A stretch of DNA of 64,000 nt, taken from sequence record OR352953.1; one strand, given 5' to 3'. This document shows positions 23,938 to 58,814 of the stretch, one piece after another (the stretch's first letter is position 1; each line of letters opens with the position of its first letter). A program made the translations under genes and the position numbers. The DNA is from Escherichia phage AV123. The notes under the pieces are model-generated. The model saw only the letters and a program-made list of their open reading frames with translations, did not search any database and was not told the origin of the DNA.

Positions 23938-24915
23938 TTAAGCAACAGTCTGGTCTTCTTTTTCAGGGAAGATTAAACTTGCAATAACACCCAACCCAAG
24001 AGTACCTAACACAATATACATACTGATCGTCGGATCAATGTGTGCTGGCAGGAAACTCATTTTTGCGTGCAGAGTTTCTGCAAACGGGTGATACATCAGT
24101 TTTACACCCACAAATACCAGGACTACGATAACTGCTTTCTCCAGATGAACCAAATACTTCAGTGCAACACTAAGAACAAAGAACAGAGCACGTAAACCTA
24201 AGATTGCACAGAGCATCGAAGAGAACACCAGTAGAGGTTCTTGTGTCACTGCAATTACTGCTGGAACAGAGTCTACTGCAAAGATTACGTCAACCATTTC
24301 CATTACAAACACACAAACCAGAGCCGGAGTTGCTACACGAACACCATTTTTGATTGTGAAGAACTTCTCACCATCCATCTGATCAGATACAGGGAACAGC
24401 TTACGAACAATGCGAGTAGCCCAGTGTTTAGAGTAATCAACTTCTGCATCATTATCTCCAGCGAATACCATTTTAGCCGCACAGAAAAGGATGACAGCAC
24501 CGAAGAAGATATTAACATACCAGCCCAAACTCAACAAGTAAGTACCTACTGCTACAAACACACCTCGGAAGACAATCGCACCTGCAATACCCCAAAGTAG
24601 AATCTTGTGCTGCAAGTGTGTGCTTTTAATACCAAAACTTGCGAAGACTGCCACAAATACTACTAAGTTATCTACAGAAAGAGATTTCTCCAACACATAC
24701 CCACTCAAAAACAAGCTCGCAAAATCAGCACCGTGTTGGAAGTATACAAAACCATAGTAGGCTAATGATACCCCAATCCAGAAAATTGACCAGCCAATTG
24801 CAGATTTAAATGAAATTTCTTTGTTTTCTCTGTGTCCAAAGAAGTCAATACAAATCGACAAGACTAAAATACCCACTAAAACAACCACATCAATAATTGG
24901 GAAACCCAGTTGCAT
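23938..24915 (-). CDS. TerC-family integral membrane protein
   Basis: Multi-pass hydrophobic profile; LEKSLSVDN matches the TerC E-x-SLS-x-DN motif. Confidence 0.75.
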   Translation of the reverse strand: MQLGFPIIDVVVLVGILVLSICIDFFGHRENKEISFKSAIGWSIFWIGVSLAYYGFVYFQHGADFASLFLSGYVLEKSLSVDNLVVFVAVFASFGIKSTHLQHKILLWGIAGAIVFRGVFVAVGTYLLSLGWYVNIFFGAVILFCAAKMVFAGDNDAEVDYSKHWATRIVRKLFPVSDQMDGEKFFTIKNGVRVATPALVCVFVMEMVDVIFAVDSVPAVIAVTQEPLLVFSSMLCAILGLRALFFVLSVALKYLVHLEKAVIVVLVFVGVKLMYHPFAETLHAKMSFLPAHIDPTISMYIVLGTLGLGVIASLIFPEKEDQTVA

Positions 24916-25471: not shown

Positions 25472-26188
25472 TTATTTCAGTTTGTAAACAATTACATTTA
25501 AACCTTTGTTTACTAGAGTTTCTTCGATCATAAGTTTTACAATACTCCAAGAACCTCCAGCCAAACCACAACCAAGCATTGGTAAACCTACAATTTTACC
25601 GCCTGAAGATACAACATCGTCTCCCATACTATCTAACGCATTGTAGATAGCTTCATAATTCAGGTCACGCTTACCTTCCTCACGACGACTATAACCATAT
25701 TGTCCATATAAATTATAAATTGTCAAATTGTTTTCTGTATACTTAGTAAACGTACCTAATTTTTTATAATCACCACGTTTAGTGGCACAATCTGCTTTAA
25801 ACGCACCAGGCCACTTACTTTTAATTTTTGGTGCAATACCACTACCCATAGTGCAAAAACAGTTACAGCAGTGTGCTATAGCGTCTATATCGCCTCTCTC
25901 GGCTGCTGCTAAAAGATCACCGTATACCTCAATGATACCTGCTGGATAACTTGTTACAATTTCATCTTCCCAGTACATTTTCTCTACACCACCGATCAGT
26001 GCAAAGTTTTGTGTAATGCGATCATCAATATAGTTAAGACCTGAAACATACACAGCATATTCATCCTGTGCTGTAATACCTTGTACACGAATTCTTAAGA
26101 CACCATCTTTATCTGTTGCTACACGCCCAAAATCTTTTTCTGTAATATTGGTGATAGGATCTCCGAAAGTCATTACTTTATTAGACAT
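25472..26188 (-). CDS. Macro-domain protein (OARD1/TARG1/Poa1-like ADP-ribose processing)
   Basis: IAHCCNCFCTMGSGIA and LPMLGCGLAGGSWSIV...VIVYKL parallel the H-x-C-N...G-x-GIA and GCGLD...VYTL motifs of that macro family; start ATG overlaps upstream stop (ATGTCTAA). Confidence 0.7.
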   Translation of the reverse strand: MSNKVMTFGDPITNITEKDFGRVATDKDGVLRIRVQGITAQDEYAVYVSGLNYIDDRITQNFALIGGVEKMYWEDEIVTSYPAGIIEVYGDLLAAAERGDIDAIAHCCNCFCTMGSGIAPKIKSKWPGAFKADCATKRGDYKKLGTFTKYTENNLTIYNLYGQYGYSRREEGKRDLNYEAIYNALDSMGDDVVSSGGKIVGLPMLGCGLAGGSWSIVKLMIEETLVNKGLNVIVYKLK

Positions 26189-27038
26189 AATAATCCCCTT
26201 TAACATTAGATTTGTTGATAATGTTGCTTTCAAAAAATTGACGTAGGAAATCAAAGTTCTCTTTATATTTTTCAATGTTATTGTAGCCTTCTGCAAGGCA
26301 ACCAAAGAACAGTTGTTCTACATAATACAAAGGAAGCTGTGAAAGTGCAATTTTAAAATCAACTTCGCTTTGACTCATTAGATACTTAATAGGACGAACC
26401 AAACATTTAGCATCAGTTTCTTGCTTAATCATCTTAATAAAAGCTGCCAGGTTATTGATATAGTTGAAGTTAAGTGCAGCTTCGGTGTTGGCTTCTGTAC
26501 CTTCATACTTTGCAAAGTACAGGAAAAACGTATCGTTTTCAACACCTTCTTTGTCTAAAATTTCAATAAGTTTTTCTTCGTGCGTTCCTGTAATATTAAC
26601 ATCATCAATGAAAATCAGAGTTTTATTACCCCAGAAATCACGATTGATAGAGAAAGTGTCACCATCGATCAAAGCCTTACGATCTTCTTTGCTAAGAAAT
26701 CCATAATCATTGATATAGCTCACTTTACGATGAACGATATCCCACTCCACTGGTTTACCACCTTTGATAGAGATTAGGTAGTTGAGGTGATCTACAAAAT
26801 GTTCAGATAACACTGTAGCTGCATTTTTCACATAGTTATATGGAGATGGAATAACAACAAAACTTTCATTTACCAGTCGTTCTTCATACTTGGAAAAGAA
26901 ACTTTCAGCCAGAATGCGCCCCATTCTTTTTGCTGCCTGGTTACTACCAAACTTTAGTTTGGAATAATCTGCAATGTTAAATTTTGCTTCCTTCAGGTTA
27001 GTAAAAGTATTAGCAAAATGTTGAATTTGATTACGCAT
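26181..27038 (-). CDS. Phosphoribosyltransferase-like protein
   Basis: TLIFIDDVNITGTHEE resembles the type I PRTase PRPP-binding loop. Confidence 0.5.
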   Translation of the reverse strand: MRNQIQHFANTFTNLKEAKFNIADYSKLKFGSNQAAKRMGRILAESFFSKYEERLVNESFVVIPSPYNYVKNAATVLSEHFVDHLNYLISIKGGKPVEWDIVHRKVSYINDYGFLSKEDRKALIDGDTFSINRDFWGNKTLIFIDDVNITGTHEEKLIEILDKEGVENDTFFLYFAKYEGTEANTEAALNFNYINNLAAFIKMIKQETDAKCLVRPIKYLMSQSEVDFKIALSQLPLYYVEQLFFGCLAEGYNNIEKYKENFDFLRQFFESNIINKSNVKGDYYV

Positions 27039-44360: not shown

Positions 44361-44388
44361 AAAACCCGCTCCGGCGGGTTTTCTTGTA
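44361..44388 (+). terminator. Hairpin terminator
   Basis: AAAAACCCGCTCCGGCGGGTTTTCTT. Confidence 0.65.
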
Positions 44389-44419: not shown

Positions 44420-45409
44420 ATGACAGCACCAAAATCATGGGAACAATATAAAGAAGAGTGTATACCAATAGCAGAGAGTAAGCAAATCCAAATCTTAGGA
44501 TGGACGGGACAATGGAAAGGGGTCCACACAAAACTTGATTTGTTGTGCCATTGTGGTTATAAATGGGATACTACAAGTATTAACAGTTTTAAATGTGGTA
44601 GCGGTTGTCCACAATGTAGGAGGAAGAATATAAGGAAGTCACAAACAATGTCCGACGATCAACATATTGCAGATTTCTTTTCTACAGGGGAATTTAAGGA
44701 AGGCACTATCTTCACTAACACAGGAACACGGGGTAAAGGATGTAGGAATATTATCTGGATGGTTGAATGTCCTGTTTGCTCTCATGATGAATATGTTCAA
44801 GCAGGTGTTTGTGATGGTAAATTTTACTCTGAAGGAGATAACCTTAAACGAGGGTATATTCCGTGTCGTTGTGGGAACTATCGGTATACAGAAGACCAGA
44901 TCACCTATAGGGTAAAAAAGGAAGTAGAAGGGAAAGGGTATGTCTGGGTAGATTGGATTACCAAACCCTCTTCTATAGGTAAGTTTAAATATCTTTGTCT
45001 TGTGCATGGTGAGCAGATAGGGAGTGCTAATAATTTATTAAGCCTCGGTCGAGGTTGTCCTATGTGTGCTGGTCATAGTCAGCAGCAGTTATATATTAAT
45101 ATTGTTAAGGATGATAATATTATAGTTGCTCTTAAGTTTGGTATAGCTAAAGATAGTGATAGGCGATTAAACATTCAAAATAGCCGTAATCTGTTTTTTA
45201 TGGAACGTATTTGTTTATATGATTTTAGCACAGTGAAACAGTGTAAGGCTGCTGAAAGAGCTATAAAGAAAAAATTAAAAACTGGTATTTTAACAGCAAG
45301 AGAGTTGAAAGACGGTCATACAGAAACAGTAAGTGTTTCTGATTTGGAAAATCTTCAAAAAATTATTACACAATATGGTGGCAAGTTAGTATACAATAAG
45401 GAGGTGTAA
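44420..45409 (+). CDS. Multi-zinc-ribbon protein with C-terminal T5orf172 (GIY-YIG-like) type region
   Basis: At least four CxxC pairs; C-terminal LYINIVKDDNIIVALKFGIAKDSDRRL resembles T5orf172 core. Confidence 0.4.
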   Translation: MTAPKSWEQYKEECIPIAESKQIQILGWTGQWKGVHTKLDLLCHCGYKWDTTSINSFKCGSGCPQCRRKNIRKSQTMSDDQHIADFFSTGEFKEGTIFTNTGTRGKGCRNIIWMVECPVCSHDEYVQAGVCDGKFYSEGDNLKRGYIPCRCGNYRYTEDQITYRVKKEVEGKGYVWVDWITKPSSIGKFKYLCLVHGEQIGSANNLLSLGRGCPMCAGHSQQQLYINIVKDDNIIVALKFGIAKDSDRRLNIQNSRNLFFMERICLYDFSTVKQCKAAERAIKKKLKTGILTARELKDGHTETVSVSDLENLQKIITQYGGKLVYNKEV

Positions 45410-45961
45410 ATGCGGATTACTGATAAGTATGTGTTCTTCTTTTCAGCAAAAGATGAATTTAGCAACTGGTATCTATCATCTTTTATTGAACCTTTAGCAC
45501 CCAAGTATAATAATTCTATTACAAGTTCTGTTGAATTTACTTGTGTGGAACAATATATGATGTGGAGAAAAGCATGTTTGTTTTATGATTACAGTATTGC
45601 ATCTTCTATTTTAACCGGAGATCTAAGATATACAGGAGAAAAAGAACAAGCATATTATAAGCGACTAGGCAGATTAGTTAAAGATTATGATGAAGATACC
45701 TGGACTTCTTTACGGGAGAAGATTGTCAAACGTGGTTTGTATCTTAAATACACACAAAATGAAGATCTCAAAAATAAACTTATAACCTACGCAGATAAGG
45801 AGTTCGTAGAGGCAAGCCCTTATGATTCTATTTATGGTATCAAAATGGGGATGTGGGATCGTGACGTGGAAAATAAGGACTGTTGGAAAGGACAAAATCT
45901 TTTAGGAAAATGGCATACAGACCTTGCTGTTTATCTAAAAGCACAATCTGATATTTCCTGA
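45410..45961 (+). CDS. NADAR (YbiA-like) domain protein
   Basis: FFFS...SNWY...F...EQYMMWRKA...LGRLV...EASPYDSIYGIKMG...GQNLLGK matches NADAR signature blocks. Confidence 0.65.
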   Translation: MRITDKYVFFFSAKDEFSNWYLSSFIEPLAPKYNNSITSSVEFTCVEQYMMWRKACLFYDYSIASSILTGDLRYTGEKEQAYYKRLGRLVKDYDEDTWTSLREKIVKRGLYLKYTQNEDLKNKLITYADKEFVEASPYDSIYGIKMGMWDRDVENKDCWKGQNLLGKWHTDLAVYLKAQSDIS

Positions 45962-46177
45962 TATTTTGAAAATTTTTATTTTTATAAAAAGGGGTGTGGG
46001 TTTCATGTACGGAAATTCACCCTCTGAATAATATATTCAGAGTAAATATTATTTTGTACTCTGTTAATAAATTATTTAATTTGTTTGTTGGATTATGATA
46101 TCTGGTTTTTAAAAGGCATACTATCTCTTAACTACTATTTATAACAGAACAGTAAAATCATTTTTATAAAAAGGACA

Positions 46178-46390
46178 AAATTATTTAAAGTTTTTACAGA
46201 TTTTTGGATACAAATTTTGAAAATGAAAAGTTCAAGTTTGGTCAAAATTATTTAAAGTTTTTGTATGTATTTCTATCCAGATTTTGAAAATGAAAACTTC
46301 AATTTTTTAAAAATTCCCCAGTTTATTTAAAGTTTTTTTGCCTTTTTCCGTAGAAAAATCAAAAATGAAAAGTTCAATTTCGTGTTTTTA
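46178..46390. repeat. Three tandem direct repeats (66-78 bp units)
   Basis: AAATTATTTAAAGTTTTT...TTTTGAAAATGAAAAGTTCAA recurs at about 46178, 46244 and 46320. Confidence 0.6.
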
Positions 46391-46394
46391 TAGG

Positions 46395-46510
46395 TGTGTT
46401 AATGAGAATCATTTTCGTTTGTAAATGAGAATCATTATCATTTAACTATGTAAGTGATAATCATTCTCACTAAGAGAATGAGAATCATTAGCAAATGAGA
46501 ATTTTTCTCA
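46395..46510. promoter_or_regulatory. Cluster of Fur-box-like palindromes
   Basis: AATGAGAATCATT (46401), AATGAGAATCATTATCATT (46424-46442), GATAATCATTCTC, and perfect inverted repeat AATGAGAA-TTT-TTCTCATT (46492-46510). Confidence 0.5.
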
Positions 46511-46774
46511 TTTAGAGAATAACGCGCAGGGGTGGTGTTTGTCTCGCGCTCCCGTGTCCCCTCGCCATACAATAAGAATAGCATAACCAACAACAAAAGC
46601 AAGCGATTATTTTTATCTTTACATTTCTTTACAAATTTATTTTAGACGAGCTACCAGCGATCAACCTTCCAACCAGTGCCCCCTGGTATGTTAGCCCCGC
46701 CTTTACGCCGTGGGGATGGCGCTTCCTCTTCTGTATGTAAAACAGTATAAGCCCGATCCCTGGGCTTGTCAAGA

Positions 46775-47041
46775 TTATTTTTTGTTTTCTTGCCAGGATA
46801 GGACACCTAACCAAAAATACATGTCGCCCCGCGCCCCTGGCGGGATCTTGCTTTCCCCGCCGCCACTGCAAGCCCATAGATAACCATTTGCGAACGTATC
46901 AAAATGATCTATTTCTTCCACCTTATGATCGCCCAGGTTGAGAACGGTTTCAACCTTTAAGCCCGTTGCGCTTGCTACCTGGTGCACCGTGCCGCCTTGC
47001 CAGCCTAATGAGTGCATGAGGTGTGAAGTAGTATTTGTCAT
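46775..47041 (-). CDS. Hypothetical protein, GC-rich gene on opposite strand
   Basis: AAAGAAAGGGCG leader and GCGCC...GGCGC hairpin upstream on - strand; GC-rich codons. Confidence 0.45.
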   Translation of the reverse strand: MTNTTSHLMHSLGWQGGTVHQVASATGLKVETVLNLGDHKVEEIDHFDTFANGYLWACSGGGESKIPPGARGDMYFWLGVLSWQENKK

Positions 47042-47246
47042 GGTATCGCCCTTTCTTTGATGTGCGCCCTGGTTGGCGCGGTAGAAAGATAATAGCCCTT
47101 TCCTTTATAGATAGCAAGCAAAAAAGAAATGAAAAAAAGATTAAAAAAGGGGTTGACGGTTGGAACGATTAACGCTATTTTGTTAGCCGTTCCAGTGTGG
47201 ATCACTGTAGCAATTGTTGTTTCAATCATTCTATAAGGCGCACACT

Positions 47247-57116: not shown

Positions 57117-57321
57117 ACCTAAATAAAGATGATAGCTTTTACCTATCAAAAACGTTCACCGAAAAAAGTGAATAGATCGCGGTATCGAGCTAATCAAGGA
57201 GCAGATGAACAACCATACCATGAAGATCATAAGGCGCTTACAACGTGTTTTAGACCGCTTATTTTTAATTTCTTCATGTAATTACCTGGCAAAAACAGCC
57301 TTTTTCTTGTCTTTCCTCTTA

Positions 57322-57397
57322 AATGATAATCATTCTTATTTATAGCTGATTATTTATGCAATAAATTGCATAATGCAATAATGAGAATCATTCTTAA
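57322..57397. promoter_or_regulatory. Fur-box-like sites flanking an 18-bp palindrome
   Basis: AATGATAATCATT at 57322-57334 (exact Fur-box core), TAATGAGAATCATTCTTA at 57378-57395, palindrome TATGCAATAAATTGCATA between them. Confidence 0.5.
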
Positions 57398-57689
57398 CTT
57401 AAGACCATCTAACCTATAAAATAATAAGTTATCTAACTAAATTAAAACTAATTATCTCACCTTTATTTATAACTTACTGTTACTATCTCATTGATAACAT
57501 TGTATTAAACAATAATAACTAATATAAATCATTACTAAGCTAAATATAATCTATCTAACCCTTAAAACTACAATTATAATCTATCGAATTGTTGCACAAA
57601 GTAACTATTAAATTGTTAGTAACATTACTAAATAATTCACATCCTATCTATTTATGATCTAATCTTTACCTTCCTATCTATTACTTAGA

Positions 57690-57737
57690 TAATCATTTCA
57701 TACAGTAACCATTTCATGTAGTAATCATTCCATACAA
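57690..57737. repeat. Three tandem 16-bp iteron-like repeats
   Basis: TAATCATTTCATACAG / TAACCATTTCATGTAG / TAATCATTCCATACAA. Confidence 0.55.
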
Positions 57738-58241
57738 TAACTATAACAAGAAATATAATTCGCAAGCGTATCATTAGCAGCCTATGCCGGACACATAGGC
57801 GGCTAATAATAACGCAACTACACACCCCACATAATAACCATCACCGATAGTTATTATTTGTGCTTATGTAGCTTGCAACAATTGCAAGCGCAACAATATA
57901 CTAGGGTATATTGTATCCCTTACATTGTTGCGGTGCGTTATTATTAGCTAATGTTTAGAACATTGGCTATAATATAAGCTATCCAATAATAAACATGGTG
58001 AATAATGACACTGATGATCATAATGCGCCACCCTCCAGGGGGCGCTATGTGAACACAAAGAAATCTTTCTTGTCAAGAAAAATATCACCATTATTGCGCA
58101 AAATTATTTATATCTGAATAGATGATTTTTCATACTATTGCCCCCTTGATTATTACCATTTGTTGAGCCTACTTTCTTAAAAGCGCAATAAAATAGAATT
58201 ATATTGATTTTTAGTCGGTTTTATAGTACAGAAAGTATGCA

Positions 58242-58455
58242 AATGATAATCATTATCAGCTATCTTCCACGGGTGGCACTATTTCACACCAGATCATTTC
58301 ATTTGGCAAGGTGTATATAGATGTTTAGACTTGCCAAGCCATTGATTTCCTTAGAATTTATCTGTTTTGTTGTGAGTAGTACCTTTCTTGCTTAGAAAAT
58401 AATCAAAAGTCTTATAAGTCATTGAATGATAATACAAATGATAATTATTCTCATT
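58242..58455. promoter_or_regulatory. Fur-box-like sites upstream of the 58.8-kb gene block
   Basis: AATGATAATCATTATC at 58242-58257 (16/16 to positions 4-19 of GATAATGATAATCATTATC); AATGATAATTATTCTCATT at 58437-58455. Confidence 0.5.
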
Positions 58456-58814
58456 GATATTTGAGGGGGACGGTCGGCAGAAATCGGGGGGTGCTGAAAA
58501 TCGCGTTAAGCACCTCTCGCAAGCGAGCAGTATTTTGCGGCAAGTTATTGATATTATTGACTTTACGCTTATGAAAAGGGGGTGTGTCGAAATAAATCGG
58601 GTATACCGGAAAATTTTTGTGGCATAGATATTTATTTGTCTATATTATGTACAAAGGGGTGTGTTAAAAATAATAGGTATATATAGAATAATTGATAGGG
58701 AATATCTATACTAATTCCTCCATTAATGATATTCCTATGCTACTGCTCTTGTAATAGATGAAAAGACGCTGTATGATGTGTGGCATGAAACGTAAACTTA
58801 TAAAGGAGTCTGAT

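What the first reader, a model, noticed from the sequence alone, without database searches (positions are those of the whole stretch)
45410..45961. NADAR-domain protein next to a zinc-finger / T5orf172-like protein
The 183-aa product carries the NADAR signature blocks. NADAR enzymes are established to remove ADP-ribose from guanine bases in DNA, reversing DarT-type toxins. Together with the OARD1-type macro domain at 25.5 kb, the phage has two distinct ADP-ribose-reversal enzymes, consistent with counter-defence against ADP-ribosylating systems. The upstream 329-aa multi-CxxC protein with a GIY-YIG-like C-terminus could be a nuclease or DNA-binding partner.
Basis: partly seen in the sequence, partly recalled or inferred. 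Interest (0 to 1): 0.6.

Follow-up and report, generated by a model that had tools for sequence, protein, structure and literature searches.

The report
Phage AdfN: known anti-DarT1 NADAR
This gene encodes a small enzyme that removes ADP-ribose from DNA so the phage can escape the bacterial DarTG1 defence. A copy differing by two amino acids, from a sister phage, has already been shown experimentally to do this, so the finding is correct but not new.

Summary
The ORF at 45410-45961 (+) is real and is a NADAR-domain protein: Pfam E=6e-36, AF2 pLDDT 97, and the best fold match is the ADP-ribose-bound Phytophthora NADAR. All literature-defined active-site residues are present and invariant in its clade.

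The window is a Justusliebigvirus (phi92-like E. coli myovirus). The protein differs by two residues (T126A, A178T) from bas60_0111 of phage PaulScherrer. That protein is AdfN^Bas60 of Johannesman et al. (Nat Commun 2025). It neutralises DarT1 toxicity and restores plaquing of three DarTG1-sensitive phages, but does not counter DarTG2.

The upstream 329-aa gene is not shown to be a partner. It is a T5orf172 (GIY-YIG-fold) homing-endonuclease-type gene with three CapR zinc-finger DNA-binding repeats. Its DNA-binding part is hypervariable (3-5 repeats) between flanks that are 96-100% conserved. It is absent next to NADAR genes in other phage lineages.

The macro-domain protein at 25.5 kb is real. 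It belongs to the TARG1/DarG/SCO6735 group and is 30% identical to T4 Tk.4/AdfM, a reported anti-DarTG2 factor. The phage probably carries both erasers; the macro function is predicted, not tested.

Novelty: already known. Interest: low.

The parts
45410..45961 (+). adfN-type NADAR gene (183 aa), orthologue of AdfN^Bas60 (bas60_0111, QXV83846.1). Predicted catalytic and ADP-ribose-contact residues: E47, K54, K84, G87, R88, W98, E134, D139.
   Evidence: ORF. Pfam NADAR E=5.8e-36. 8BAU E=7e-12. AF2 pLDDT 97.1; Foldseek 8BAU TM 0.77 and YbiA 2B3W TM 0.69. Residues invariant in the 50-sequence alignment A1. Two substitutions relative to Bas60. Published cloning primers match the ORF ends with 0 and 1 mismatch.
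45400..45404 (+). GGAGG ribosome-binding site of the NADAR gene, inside the 3' end of the upstream ORF. The stop TAA (45407-45409) abuts ATG 45410.
   Evidence: Read directly from the sequence.
44420..45409 (+). T5orf172 (GIY-YIG superfamily) homing-endonuclease-type gene, 329 aa. It has three CapR-type Zn-finger DNA-binding repeats (ligands C43/C45/C63/C66; C117/C120/C149/C151; C193/H196/C213/C216) and a C-terminal nuclease domain (about residues 222-329; Y225, G241-I242, R249, E279, E302).
44361..44382 (+). Intrinsic-terminator-like hairpin (AAAACCCGC-TCCG-GCGGGTTTT plus T-tract) after the AAA-ATPase gene, 38 nt before the HEG start. It delimits the HEG-NADAR pair on the 5' side.
   Evidence: sequence.
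25472..26188 (-). Macro-domain protein (238 aa; macro domain about residues 85-237) of the TARG1/DarG/SCO6735 group and a homologue of T4 Tk.4/AdfM. It is the second, mechanistically distinct ADP-ribose eraser cited in the finding.
   Evidence: Pfam Macro E=2.7e-7. PDB SCO6735 1.2e-15, OARD1 3e-10, DarG 7e-4. NCBIfam antitoxin_DarG 4.8e-13. PADLOC DarG 1.2e-13. BLASTP against T4 Tk.4: 30% identity over 139 aa, E=1e-17. Start codon checked.

Best explanation
The 183-aa protein is an orphan, phage-encoded NADAR ADP-ribosylglycohydrolase of the AdfN class ('anti-DarT factor NADAR'), the orthologue of AdfN^Bas60.

Proposed mechanism: when the phage infects a cell carrying the DarTG1 toxin-antitoxin defence, the DarT1 toxin ADP-ribosylates guanine bases in phage DNA and blocks replication. 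AdfN binds the ADP-ribose moiety through K54, R88 and W98 (phosphates), Y93 (adenine stacking), and E47, E134 and D139 (distal ribose). It then hydrolyses the N-glycosidic ribose-guanine bond, restoring unmodified DNA and allowing replication. It needs no other phage factor and is specific for guanine adducts, not thymine adducts.

Shown in the literature, on a protein differing at 2 of 183 positions: neutralisation of DarT1 toxicity, rescue of RB69, T5 and Bas25 on DarTG1 hosts, and no rescue on DarTG2.

Shown here: orthology, NADAR fold, and an intact, invariant active site.

Inferred: the catalytic roles of the individual residues (by homology to PnNADAR and E. coli C7 DarG1), and that the gene is needed by this phage in nature.

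The upstream gene is most likely a selfish T5orf172/CapR homing endonuclease that shares the transcription unit, not a functional subunit.
For: Domain and fold:
- Pfam NADAR 124.6 bits.
- AF2 pLDDT 97.1.
- Only significant PDB fold matches are NADARs: 8BAU (TM 0.77) and YbiA 2B3W.

Active site:
- The phmmer alignment to 8BAU, combined with the residue list of Schuller 2023, maps PnNADAR residues to window residues as follows: E43/K50/K75/G78/R79/Y84/W89/R93/E125/D130 correspond to E47/K54/K84/G87/R88/Y93/W98/R102/E134/D139.
- E47, K54, K84, G87, W98, E134 and D139 are invariant, and R88 is at least 90% conserved, in 50 homologues.

Orthology:
- The gene is 99.3% nucleotide-identical to PaulScherrer (Bas60) bas60_0111. 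The protein differs only by T126A and A178T.
- The published AdfN^Bas60 cloning primers match positions 45410 and 45932-45961 with 0 and 1 mismatch.

Function of the orthologue:
- PMC11825919 Fig. 5b-f, as described in its text; preprint version.

Orphan status:
- Neighbours are a HEG upstream and non-coding DNA downstream.

Independence from the upstream gene:
- Ectopic AdfN^Bas60 alone suffices.
- No HEG lies next to NADAR in five other lineages.
Against: - No deletion of the gene in its native phage (Bas60-62 or this one) is reported in the papers read, so necessity during natural infection is not shown.
- For this clade the papers describe in vivo assays only; direct in vitro hydrolysis was shown for T4 AdfN and other NADARs.
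- NCBIfam TIGR02464 ('riboflavin biosynthesis intermediates N-glycosidase') scores above its cutoff (109.5 against 73.7). The catalytic Glu134 is the YbiA/NADAR-type residue rather than the Asp of DarT1-associated antitoxins.
- E. coli YbiA cleaves G-ADPr in vitro yet does not protect from DarT1, so family membership alone would not have proven the function.
- No promoter was identified for the HEG-NADAR pair.
Confidence: 0.9

Rival explanations
1. Metabolic YbiA-like enzyme: the protein is an N-glycosidase that destroys reactive riboflavin-pathway intermediates (or similar small-molecule ribosides) during infection. Anti-DarT1 activity would then be a side activity seen only on over-expression.
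For: NCBIfam TIGR02464 hit above cutoff. Glu at the YbiA-type catalytic position. Public records call it 'YbiA-like N-glycosidase' or 'GTP cyclohydrolase II'.
Against: No riboflavin genes were identified among the neighbouring genes profile-scanned (AAA-ATPase, HEG), nor in the RefSeq annotation of the homologous region of phage VEcB. E. coli YbiA does not protect from DarT1, whereas AdfN^Bas60 restores three DarTG1-sensitive phages to full titre. The 'GTP cyclohydrolase II' labels stem from RibA-fusion homologues, not from a cyclohydrolase domain; Pfam finds only NADAR.
Confidence: 0.04
2. Broader eraser: the physiological targets extend beyond, or differ from, DarT1 guanine adducts. Candidates are cytidine-ADPr or RNA-linked ADPr made by other ADP-ribosyltransferase toxins, or soluble ADP-ribose-derived immune signals. 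DarTG1 would be only one of several systems countered.
For: NADAR- and YbiA-family enzymes with Glu at this position remove both G-ADPr and C-ADPr from DNA and RNA, whereas Asp (DarG1) and His (T4) types remove only G-ADPr (PMC12945103). The window protein has Glu134. Iyer et al. 2022 argued that phage NADARs mainly process low-molecular-weight ADPr derivatives. In Listeria phage P100 the homologue sits among RNA-repair genes.
Against: No experiment exists on this clade with C-ADPr, RNA or soluble substrates. The only demonstrated phenotype is anti-DarT1. No cytidine-modifying ART defence is known in E. coli from the papers read.
Confidence: 0.15
3. Two-component unit: the upstream Zn-finger/T5orf172 protein is a functional partner, for example recruiting NADAR to DNA or regulating adfN expression like the I-TevI autorepressor.
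For: The genes abut (stop and start adjacent, with the SD inside the upstream ORF). The same gene order is seen in every Stephanstirmvirinae genome examined, including Phapecoctavirus. Nuclease-domain residues are conserved.
Against: AdfN^Bas60 works alone. In ukendt two extra small ORFs separate the two genes. NADAR genes in Seunavirus, Klebsiella, Listeria, Staphylococcus and jumbo-phage-like contigs have no such neighbour. The family is multi-copy and annotated as homing endonucleases elsewhere (856 places in 442 records; ICP1 has 3-5 copies). The DNA-binding array varies by whole repeats between phages whose NADAR is 98-99% identical, as described for selfish T5orf172 HEGs.
Confidence: 0.04

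Closest known systems
AdfN^Bas60 (bas60_0111, QXV83846.1, Escherichia phage PaulScherrer; Johannesman, Carlson & LeRoux, Nat Commun 2025;16:1598)
   Same: Same gene: 99.3% nucleotide identity and 181/183 amino acids. Same locus (ATPase - T5orf172 HEG - NADAR - conserved non-coding region) and same phage genus.
   Different: Two substitutions (T126A, A178T) away from the active site. The neighbouring HEG allele has 3 CapR repeats here against 5 in Bas60.
T4 AdfN (gp30.3)
   Same: An orphan phage NADAR that counters DarTG1 by removing guanine-linked ADP-ribose. Same E...K pair (T4 E36/K43; E47/K54 here).
   Different: No BLASTP-detectable similarity (E=1.7). T4 has His where this protein has Glu134. 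T4 AdfN does not neutralise DarT1 in uninfected cells, whereas AdfN^Bas60 does. The two were acquired independently.
DarG1 (DarT1-associated BC4488-type NADAR antitoxin, e.g. E. coli C7, G. lovleyi)
   Same: Same fold and same reaction (G-ADPr hydrolysis). Conserved Glu and Lys (EcC7 E88/K95).
   Different: No adjacent DarT1. No N-terminal beta1-beta2-alpha1 extension. Glu134 instead of the catalytic Asp (EcC7 D171). No PADLOC DarG hit for the NADAR.
E. coli YbiA and Phytophthora PnNADAR (8BAU)
   Same: Closest solved structures (TM 0.69 and 0.77). YbiA-type catalytic Glu. NCBIfam TIGR02464 membership.
   Different: 21-27% identity. Two clade-specific insertions (about residues 29-40 and 72-80). 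YbiA does not protect against DarT1 in vivo.
T5orf172 homing endonucleases with CapR DNA-binding repeats (ICP1 gp165/gp174 type; Barth et al. 2023; Netter et al. 2021)
   Same: N-terminal repeated CxxC/CxC Zn-fingers plus a C-terminal T5orf172 GIY-YIG-fold nuclease. Repeat-number variation by recombination. Located at a boundary of sequence conservation.
   Different: No HEG-less allele and no second copy were found (only 64 kb of the genome was searched), so homing itself is not evidenced.
T4 AdfM (Tk.4) and S. coelicolor SCO6735, for the macro protein at 25.5 kb
   Same: TARG1/DarG-group macrodomain. 30% identical to Tk.4 (E=1e-17). SCO6735 is the best PDB sequence match. SCO6735 cleaves thymidine-linked DNA ADP-ribose and AdfM protects T4 from DarTG2.
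   Different: An extra N-terminal region of about 85 aa. Translationally overlapped with a ComF-like PRTase gene. No experimental data for this protein.

Membership tests
NADAR superfamily (Pfam PF08719 / DUF1768) | Profile match above the curated threshold | tested here: met
   124.6 bits against a cutoff of 35.1, E=5.8e-36, covering profile positions 9-154 of 163.
NADAR superfamily (Pfam PF08719 / DUF1768) | NADAR/YbiA fold (alpha-helical core flanked by small beta-sheets) | tested here: met
   AF2 pLDDT 97.1. Foldseek finds only NADARs as significant: 8BAU E=1e-9, TM 0.77; 2B3W E=4e-6, TM 0.69.
NADAR superfamily (Pfam PF08719 / DUF1768) | Catalytic and ADPr-binding residues (PnNADAR E43, K50, E125; plus R79, W89, D130) | tested here: met
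   E47, K54, E134, R88, W98 and D139, mapped from the alignment and the residue list. All are invariant or at least 90% conserved in A1.
NADAR superfamily (Pfam PF08719 / DUF1768) | Hydrolysis of guanine-linked ADP-ribose on DNA | not testable with these tools
   Inferred from in vivo DarT1 neutralisation by the 181/183-identical AdfN^Bas60 and from in vitro data on other NADARs.
AdfN (phage orphan anti-DarT1 NADAR), Bas60 type | Orthology to the experimentally tested AdfN^Bas60 | tested here: met
   99.3% nucleotide identity, 2 amino-acid differences, same synteny. Published primers match.
AdfN (phage orphan anti-DarT1 NADAR), Bas60 type | Orphan: no cognate DarT toxin gene adjacent | tested here: met
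   Upstream lie a HEG and an AAA-ATPase; downstream lies 1.6 kb of mostly non-coding DNA.
AdfN (phage orphan anti-DarT1 NADAR), Bas60 type | Protects phage from DarTG1; required in the native phage | not testable with these tools
   Sufficiency is shown for the orthologue in trans. Necessity in the native phage is not reported in the papers read.
DarG1 antitoxin (BC4488-type NADAR) | Encoded next to DarT1 | tested here: not met
   No ART gene adjacent.
DarG1 antitoxin (BC4488-type NADAR) | Catalytic Asp (EcC7 D171) and N-terminal beta-beta-alpha extension | tested here: not met
   Glu134 occupies that position. The core starts at residue 7 of the model, with no N-terminal extension. No PADLOC DarG hit for this protein.
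YbiA-type riboflavin-intermediate N-glycosidase (TIGR02464) | Profile match above the NCBIfam cutoff; Glu at the E125-equivalent position | tested here: met
   109.5 bits against 73.7; Glu134.
YbiA-type riboflavin-intermediate N-glycosidase (TIGR02464) | Fusion or neighbourhood with riboflavin genes (RibA/RibD), or a LexA-operon context | tested here: not met
   Single-domain protein. No rib genes among the profile-scanned neighbours (AAA-ATPase, HEG) or in the annotation of the homologous 42-kb region of VEcB.
T5orf172/CapR homing endonuclease (upstream gene) | T5orf172 (GIY-YIG superfamily) nuclease domain with conserved core residues | tested here: met
T5orf172/CapR homing endonuclease (upstream gene) | Repeated CapR-type Zn-finger DNA-binding domains with repeat-number variation | tested here: met
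   Three stretches here, and 3-5 by Zn-knuckle motif count in alleles of 325-467 aa. Insertions of +201 or +408 nt equal one or two repeats.
T5orf172/CapR homing endonuclease (upstream gene) | Mobility: presence/absence polymorphism, multiple copies, or demonstrated homing | tested here: inconclusive
   The family is multi-copy in ICP1 and other phages. The gene is present at this locus in every relative examined, and there is no paralogue in the 64-kb window. The variability pattern is suggestive only.
AdfM / DarG-type macrodomain (25.5-kb gene) | Macro domain of the TARG1/DarG/SCO6735 group, homologous to T4 Tk.4 | tested here: met
AdfM / DarG-type macrodomain (25.5-kb gene) | Removes thymidine-linked ADP-ribose; protects from DarTG2 | not testable with these tools
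   Analogy only: SCO6735 (PMC9411070, cited) and T4 AdfM.

The most novel reading that the evidence does not exclude
The phi92-like phages may carry a complete two-enzyme kit for erasing DNA ADP-ribosylation. One enzyme is a Glu-type AdfN, which unlike T4's His-type enzyme may also remove cytidine-linked and RNA-linked ADP-ribose. The other is an AdfM-like macrodomain against thymidine adducts. In addition, the adfN gene may be spread or homogenised among co-infecting phages by co-conversion with the adjacent, rapidly diversifying T5orf172/CapR homing endonuclease, so that an anti-defence gene hitch-hikes on a selfish nuclease.
Probability: 0.25. Interest if true: 0.4.

Novelty: already known. 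Interest (0 to 1): 0.15.

Why it matters
It confirms that raw-sequence reading correctly picked out a genuine anti-defence gene. The gene's function (AdfN^Bas60) was published in 2025, and NADAR+macro pairing has a T4 precedent (AdfN plus AdfM).

Practical value is mainly in annotation. Many public records label this gene 'hypothetical', 'GTP cyclohydrolase II' or even 'DNA methyltransferase', and label the macro protein 'phosphatase'. For phage therapy with phi92-like broad-host-range phages, knowing that they carry DarTG1 counter-measures, and probably DarTG2 counter-measures, helps predict host range.

Points that remain open:
- Whether the gene is necessary in its native phage.
- Whether its substrate range goes beyond guanine.
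- What the macro protein does.
- Whether the neighbouring HEG promotes spread of adfN.

Tried and rejected
1. 'Partner' hypothesis for the upstream gene. Rejected as unsupported: the orthologue works alone, the adjacency is lineage-specific, and the gene has HEG hallmarks.

2. DarG1 membership. Rejected: no DarT neighbour, no N-terminal extension, and Glu rather than Asp.

3. A close relationship to T4 AdfN. Rejected: no BLASTP similarity.

4. 'GTP cyclohydrolase II' annotation. Rejected: Pfam finds only a NADAR domain.

6. A search for a HEG-less allele or a paralogue found none, so homing could not be demonstrated.

7. A look for cellular relatives: the contig tried (P0040, 310 kb) looks like a jumbo phage, not a bacterium. 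The origin of the clade was not pursued further.

8. tRNA and Rfam scans of the window and of the downstream non-coding stretch found nothing credible.

9. No sigma-70 promoter could be assigned to the HEG-NADAR pair.

Full report
**Observation**

The window is a phi92-like E. coli myovirus (Stephanstirmvirinae, genus Justusliebigvirus). The 3.2-kb region around the finding is 99.2% identical to phage SD2 and 95-99% identical to about 50 other genomes.

The ORF at 45410-45961 (+) is exactly as described: 183 aa, ATG start, and a GGAGG at 45400-45404. It directly abuts the stop codon of the upstream 329-aa ORF at 44420-45409.

The protein matches:
- Pfam NADAR at E=5.8e-36, 124.6 bits against a gathering score of 35.1.
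- PHROG 1017 at E=1.3e-49.
- The ADP-ribose-bound NADAR of Phytophthora (PDB 8BAU) at E=7e-12.

An AlphaFold2 model built on 50 homologues has pLDDT 97.1. Its only significant PDB fold matches are 8BAU (TM 0.77) and E. coli YbiA (TM 0.69).

**Active site**

Schuller et al. 2023 (PMC11543638) define the PnNADAR residues that contact ADP-ribose (E43, K50, R79, Y84, D86, W89, R93, E125, D130, W133) and K75, which lies close to the active site without contacting the ligand; its E. coli C7 equivalent K115 is needed to counter DarT1. They show by mutagenesis of the E. coli C7 antitoxin that the equivalents of E43, K50 and E125 are needed.

I mapped these through the phmmer alignment. A constant +2 offset between chain index and paper numbering makes all eleven named residues fall on the stated amino acids. 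The window protein has E47, K54, K84, R88, Y93, E95, W98, R102, E134, D139 and Y142.

In a 50-sequence alignment of its clade, E47, K54, K84, G87, W98, E134 and D139 are invariant and R88 is at least 90% conserved.

The residue at the E125 position separates the subfamilies: Glu in NADAR/YbiA types, Asp in DarT1-associated antitoxins, His in T4-type phage NADARs. Here it is Glu134. An alignment with T4 gp30.3 and YbiA shows His and Glu respectively at that column.

**Identity with a characterised protein**

Johannesman, Carlson and LeRoux (preprint PMC11257639; Nat Commun 2025;16:1598, PMC11825919) report that BASEL phages Bas60-62 encode a NADAR that they name AdfN^Bas60. According to their text:
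- It neutralises DarT1 in E. coli without phage.
- It restores plaquing of RB69, T5 and Bas25 on DarTG1 hosts to full titre.
- It does not help T5 on DarTG2.

Their cloning primers match the window at 45410 (0 mismatches) and 45932-45961 (1 mismatch). Bas60 is phage PaulScherrer. Its gene bas60_0111 (QXV83846.1) is 99.3% identical in DNA, and the protein differs only by T126A and A178T. Neither position is an active-site position.

Bas61 (EmilieFrey) bas61_0107 differs at two positions as well. The window gene is therefore adfN of the Bas60 type, and its function is already published.

**Relation to other NADARs**

- There is no BLASTP-detectable similarity to T4 AdfN (E=1.7). This agrees with the authors' view that phages acquired NADARs several times.
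- The protein lacks the features of DarG1: no DarT neighbour, no N-terminal extension, and Glu instead of Asp. PADLOC's DarG model does not hit it.
- NCBIfam's 'riboflavin biosynthesis intermediates N-glycosidase' domain model does score above its cutoff. This explains public labels such as 'YbiA-like N-glycosidase' and 'GTP cyclohydrolase II'.
- No riboflavin genes were identified among the neighbouring genes I profile-scanned or in the VEcB annotation of the homologous region. E. coli YbiA itself does not protect against DarT1. I therefore rate the metabolic reading as unlikely.
- A 2026 study found that Glu-type NADARs also remove cytidine-linked ADP-ribose, whereas Asp and His types do not. 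A wider substrate range for this enzyme is possible but untested.
- Homologues at 35-45% identity are widespread in large myoviruses: Herelleviridae, Vequintavirinae, Klebsiella phages, Xanthomonas jumbo phages and Lak phages (724 records).

**The upstream gene**

The 329-aa protein has three CapR homology domains (Zn-fingers; E=1.7e-25) and a T5orf172 domain (21.5 bits, just above the cutoff of 20). It also has a strong PHROG 'endonuclease' match.

This architecture is the one described for T5orf172 homing endonucleases of ICP1 and other phages. In those, CapR-type fingers are repeated and shuffled by recombination (Barth et al. 2023, PMC10448857).

Three results fit that description:
- The family occurs at 856 places in 442 phage records, with 3-5 copies in ICP1 genomes, where it is annotated as homing endonuclease.
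- Within Justusliebigvirus the flanking ATPase and NADAR proteins are 98-100% identical to the window's. The HEG is 99, 90, 84 and about 61-73% identical in KMB37, Bas61, PHB05 and phi92.
- Alleles are 325-467 aa long with 3-5 Zn-finger repeats. At nucleotide level, identity falls to 49-90% only across 44.4-45.1 kb, with insertions of 201 or 408 nt (one or two repeats). The nuclease part and both flanks stay at 90-100%.

NADAR genes in Seunavirus, a Klebsiella phage, Listeria P100, a Staphylococcus Twortvirinae phage and a jumbo-phage-like contig have no such neighbour. AdfN^Bas60 also acts alone. The 'partner' idea is therefore not supported.

Two cautions apply. I found no HEG-less allele and no second copy in the window, so homing is inferred from family resemblance rather than shown. 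The fixed position of the gene in the whole subfamily leaves a small chance of a regulatory role.

An intrinsic-terminator-like hairpin at 44361-44382 follows the ATPase gene. No convincing sigma-70 promoter precedes the HEG.

**The macro domain at 25.5 kb**

CDS 25472-26188 (-) encodes 238 aa with a C-terminal Macro domain. Its matches are:
- Best PDB sequence matches: SCO6735 (1e-15), BT1257, human OARD1/TARG1 (3e-10) and the DarG macrodomain (7e-4).
- The NCBIfam and PADLOC DarG models hit the macro part.
- It is 30% identical over 139 aa to T4 Tk.4 (E=1e-17).

Tk.4 was recently named AdfM and shown to protect T4 from DarTG2 (bioRxiv 10.1101/2025.11.20.689424). SCO6735 cleaves thymidine-linked DNA ADP-ribose (cited).

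Anti-DarT2 activity of this protein is a prediction.

**Verdict**

The central element is already known as AdfN^Bas60.

Remaining gaps are necessity in the native phage, substrate breadth, the function of the macro protein, and whether the HEG promotes spread of adfN. Interest is low (0.15).

**Side observation**

The 1.6-kb stretch after adfN is mostly non-coding, yet 45962-46640 is about 98% identical across five genomes. It contains three direct repeats of about 70 nt (46160-46380). It also contains an array of palindromic AATGAGAATCATT motifs (46398-46512) that closely match the E. coli Fur box.

Another near-perfect Fur box lies at 58239-58257 in a second large non-coding region. The 19-bp Fur consensus with up to 3 mismatches occurs 5 times against 0.03 expected. 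I did not find this described in the paper library.

Noticed in passing
window 46398-46512 (also 57322-57392 and 58239-58455): Clusters of Fur-box-like palindromes (AATGAGAATCATT or AATGATAATCATT) lie in large non-coding regions of this virulent phage. The 13-mer with up to 2 mismatches occurs 32 times against 8.6 expected. The full 19-bp E. coli Fur consensus with up to 3 mismatches occurs 5 times against 0.03 expected; the best site, at 58239-58257, has 2 mismatches. The array downstream of adfN is conserved in Bas60, Bas61, PHB05, phi92 and KMB37, with one exact copy in Phapecoctavirus ukendt. It could be host Fur operators (iron-responsive phage transcription or Fur titration) or sites for a phage regulator. 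One full-text search of the paper library returned no description of this.
   Followed up: partly
window 45962-46640: An AT-rich (GC about 0.22) non-coding stretch is about 98% identical across five Justusliebigvirus genomes, at least as conserved as the coding flanks. It holds three direct repeats of about 70 nt (46160-46238, 46227-46305, 46302-46380), each containing TTGAAAATGAAAAGTTCAA and AATTATTTAAAGTTTTT. These could be tandem promoters or iterons (a replication origin?). No Rfam family matches.
   Followed up: partly
window 46600-47240: A GC-richer island (GC 0.45-0.51 against about 0.35 around it) lies between the Fur-box array and the next + strand genes. It contains an 88-aa minus-strand ORF (46775-47041; PHROG 19316, unknown function; equivalent to phi92 gp224). 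A near-consensus sigma-70 promoter on the minus strand (46772-46744, TTGACA-17-TATACT) sits just downstream of that ORF.
   Followed up: no
window 26181-27038 (-) and 25472-26188 (-): The macro gene's ATG (26188-26186) overlaps by 8 nt the stop of an upstream 285-aa ComF-like phosphoribosyltransferase gene (Pfam PRTase_3, E=1.5e-41; PHROG 13415, unknown function). This suggests a translationally coupled PRTase-macro pair. A TerC-family membrane protein gene (23938-24915) lies just downstream. What a PRTase does next to an ADP-ribose eraser is unexplained.
   Followed up: partly
window 57280-58750: This is a second large (about 1.4 kb), very AT-rich region with no ORF longer than 57 aa. It carries several of the Fur-box-like sites and many short repeated motifs.
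   Followed up: no
public records matching window 45410-45961: Annotation of this gene is inconsistent across GenBank: 'hypothetical protein', 'GTP cyclohydrolase II', 'putative YbiA-like N-glycosidase', 'NADAR family protein' and even 'DNA methyltransferase' (phage Eryne). The macro protein is labelled 'phosphatase'. Five records named 'Campylobacter phage' (A150, A145, C3, A110a, B15; host C. jejuni) match this region; four are 97.6% nucleotide-identical in adfN to these E. coli phages, while B15 is Phapecoctavirus-like (58.7% protein identity). This suggests mislabelled hosts or contamination.
   Followed up: no
window 45410-45958 (protein): The PADLOC model PDC-M42C, a component of a candidate bacterial defence system, matches the NADAR at E=2e-34. 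NCBIfam has a 'NADAR family anti-phage protein' model (DS32_2) that hits weakly. Closely related NADAR folds therefore appear on both the defence and counter-defence sides.
   Followed up: no
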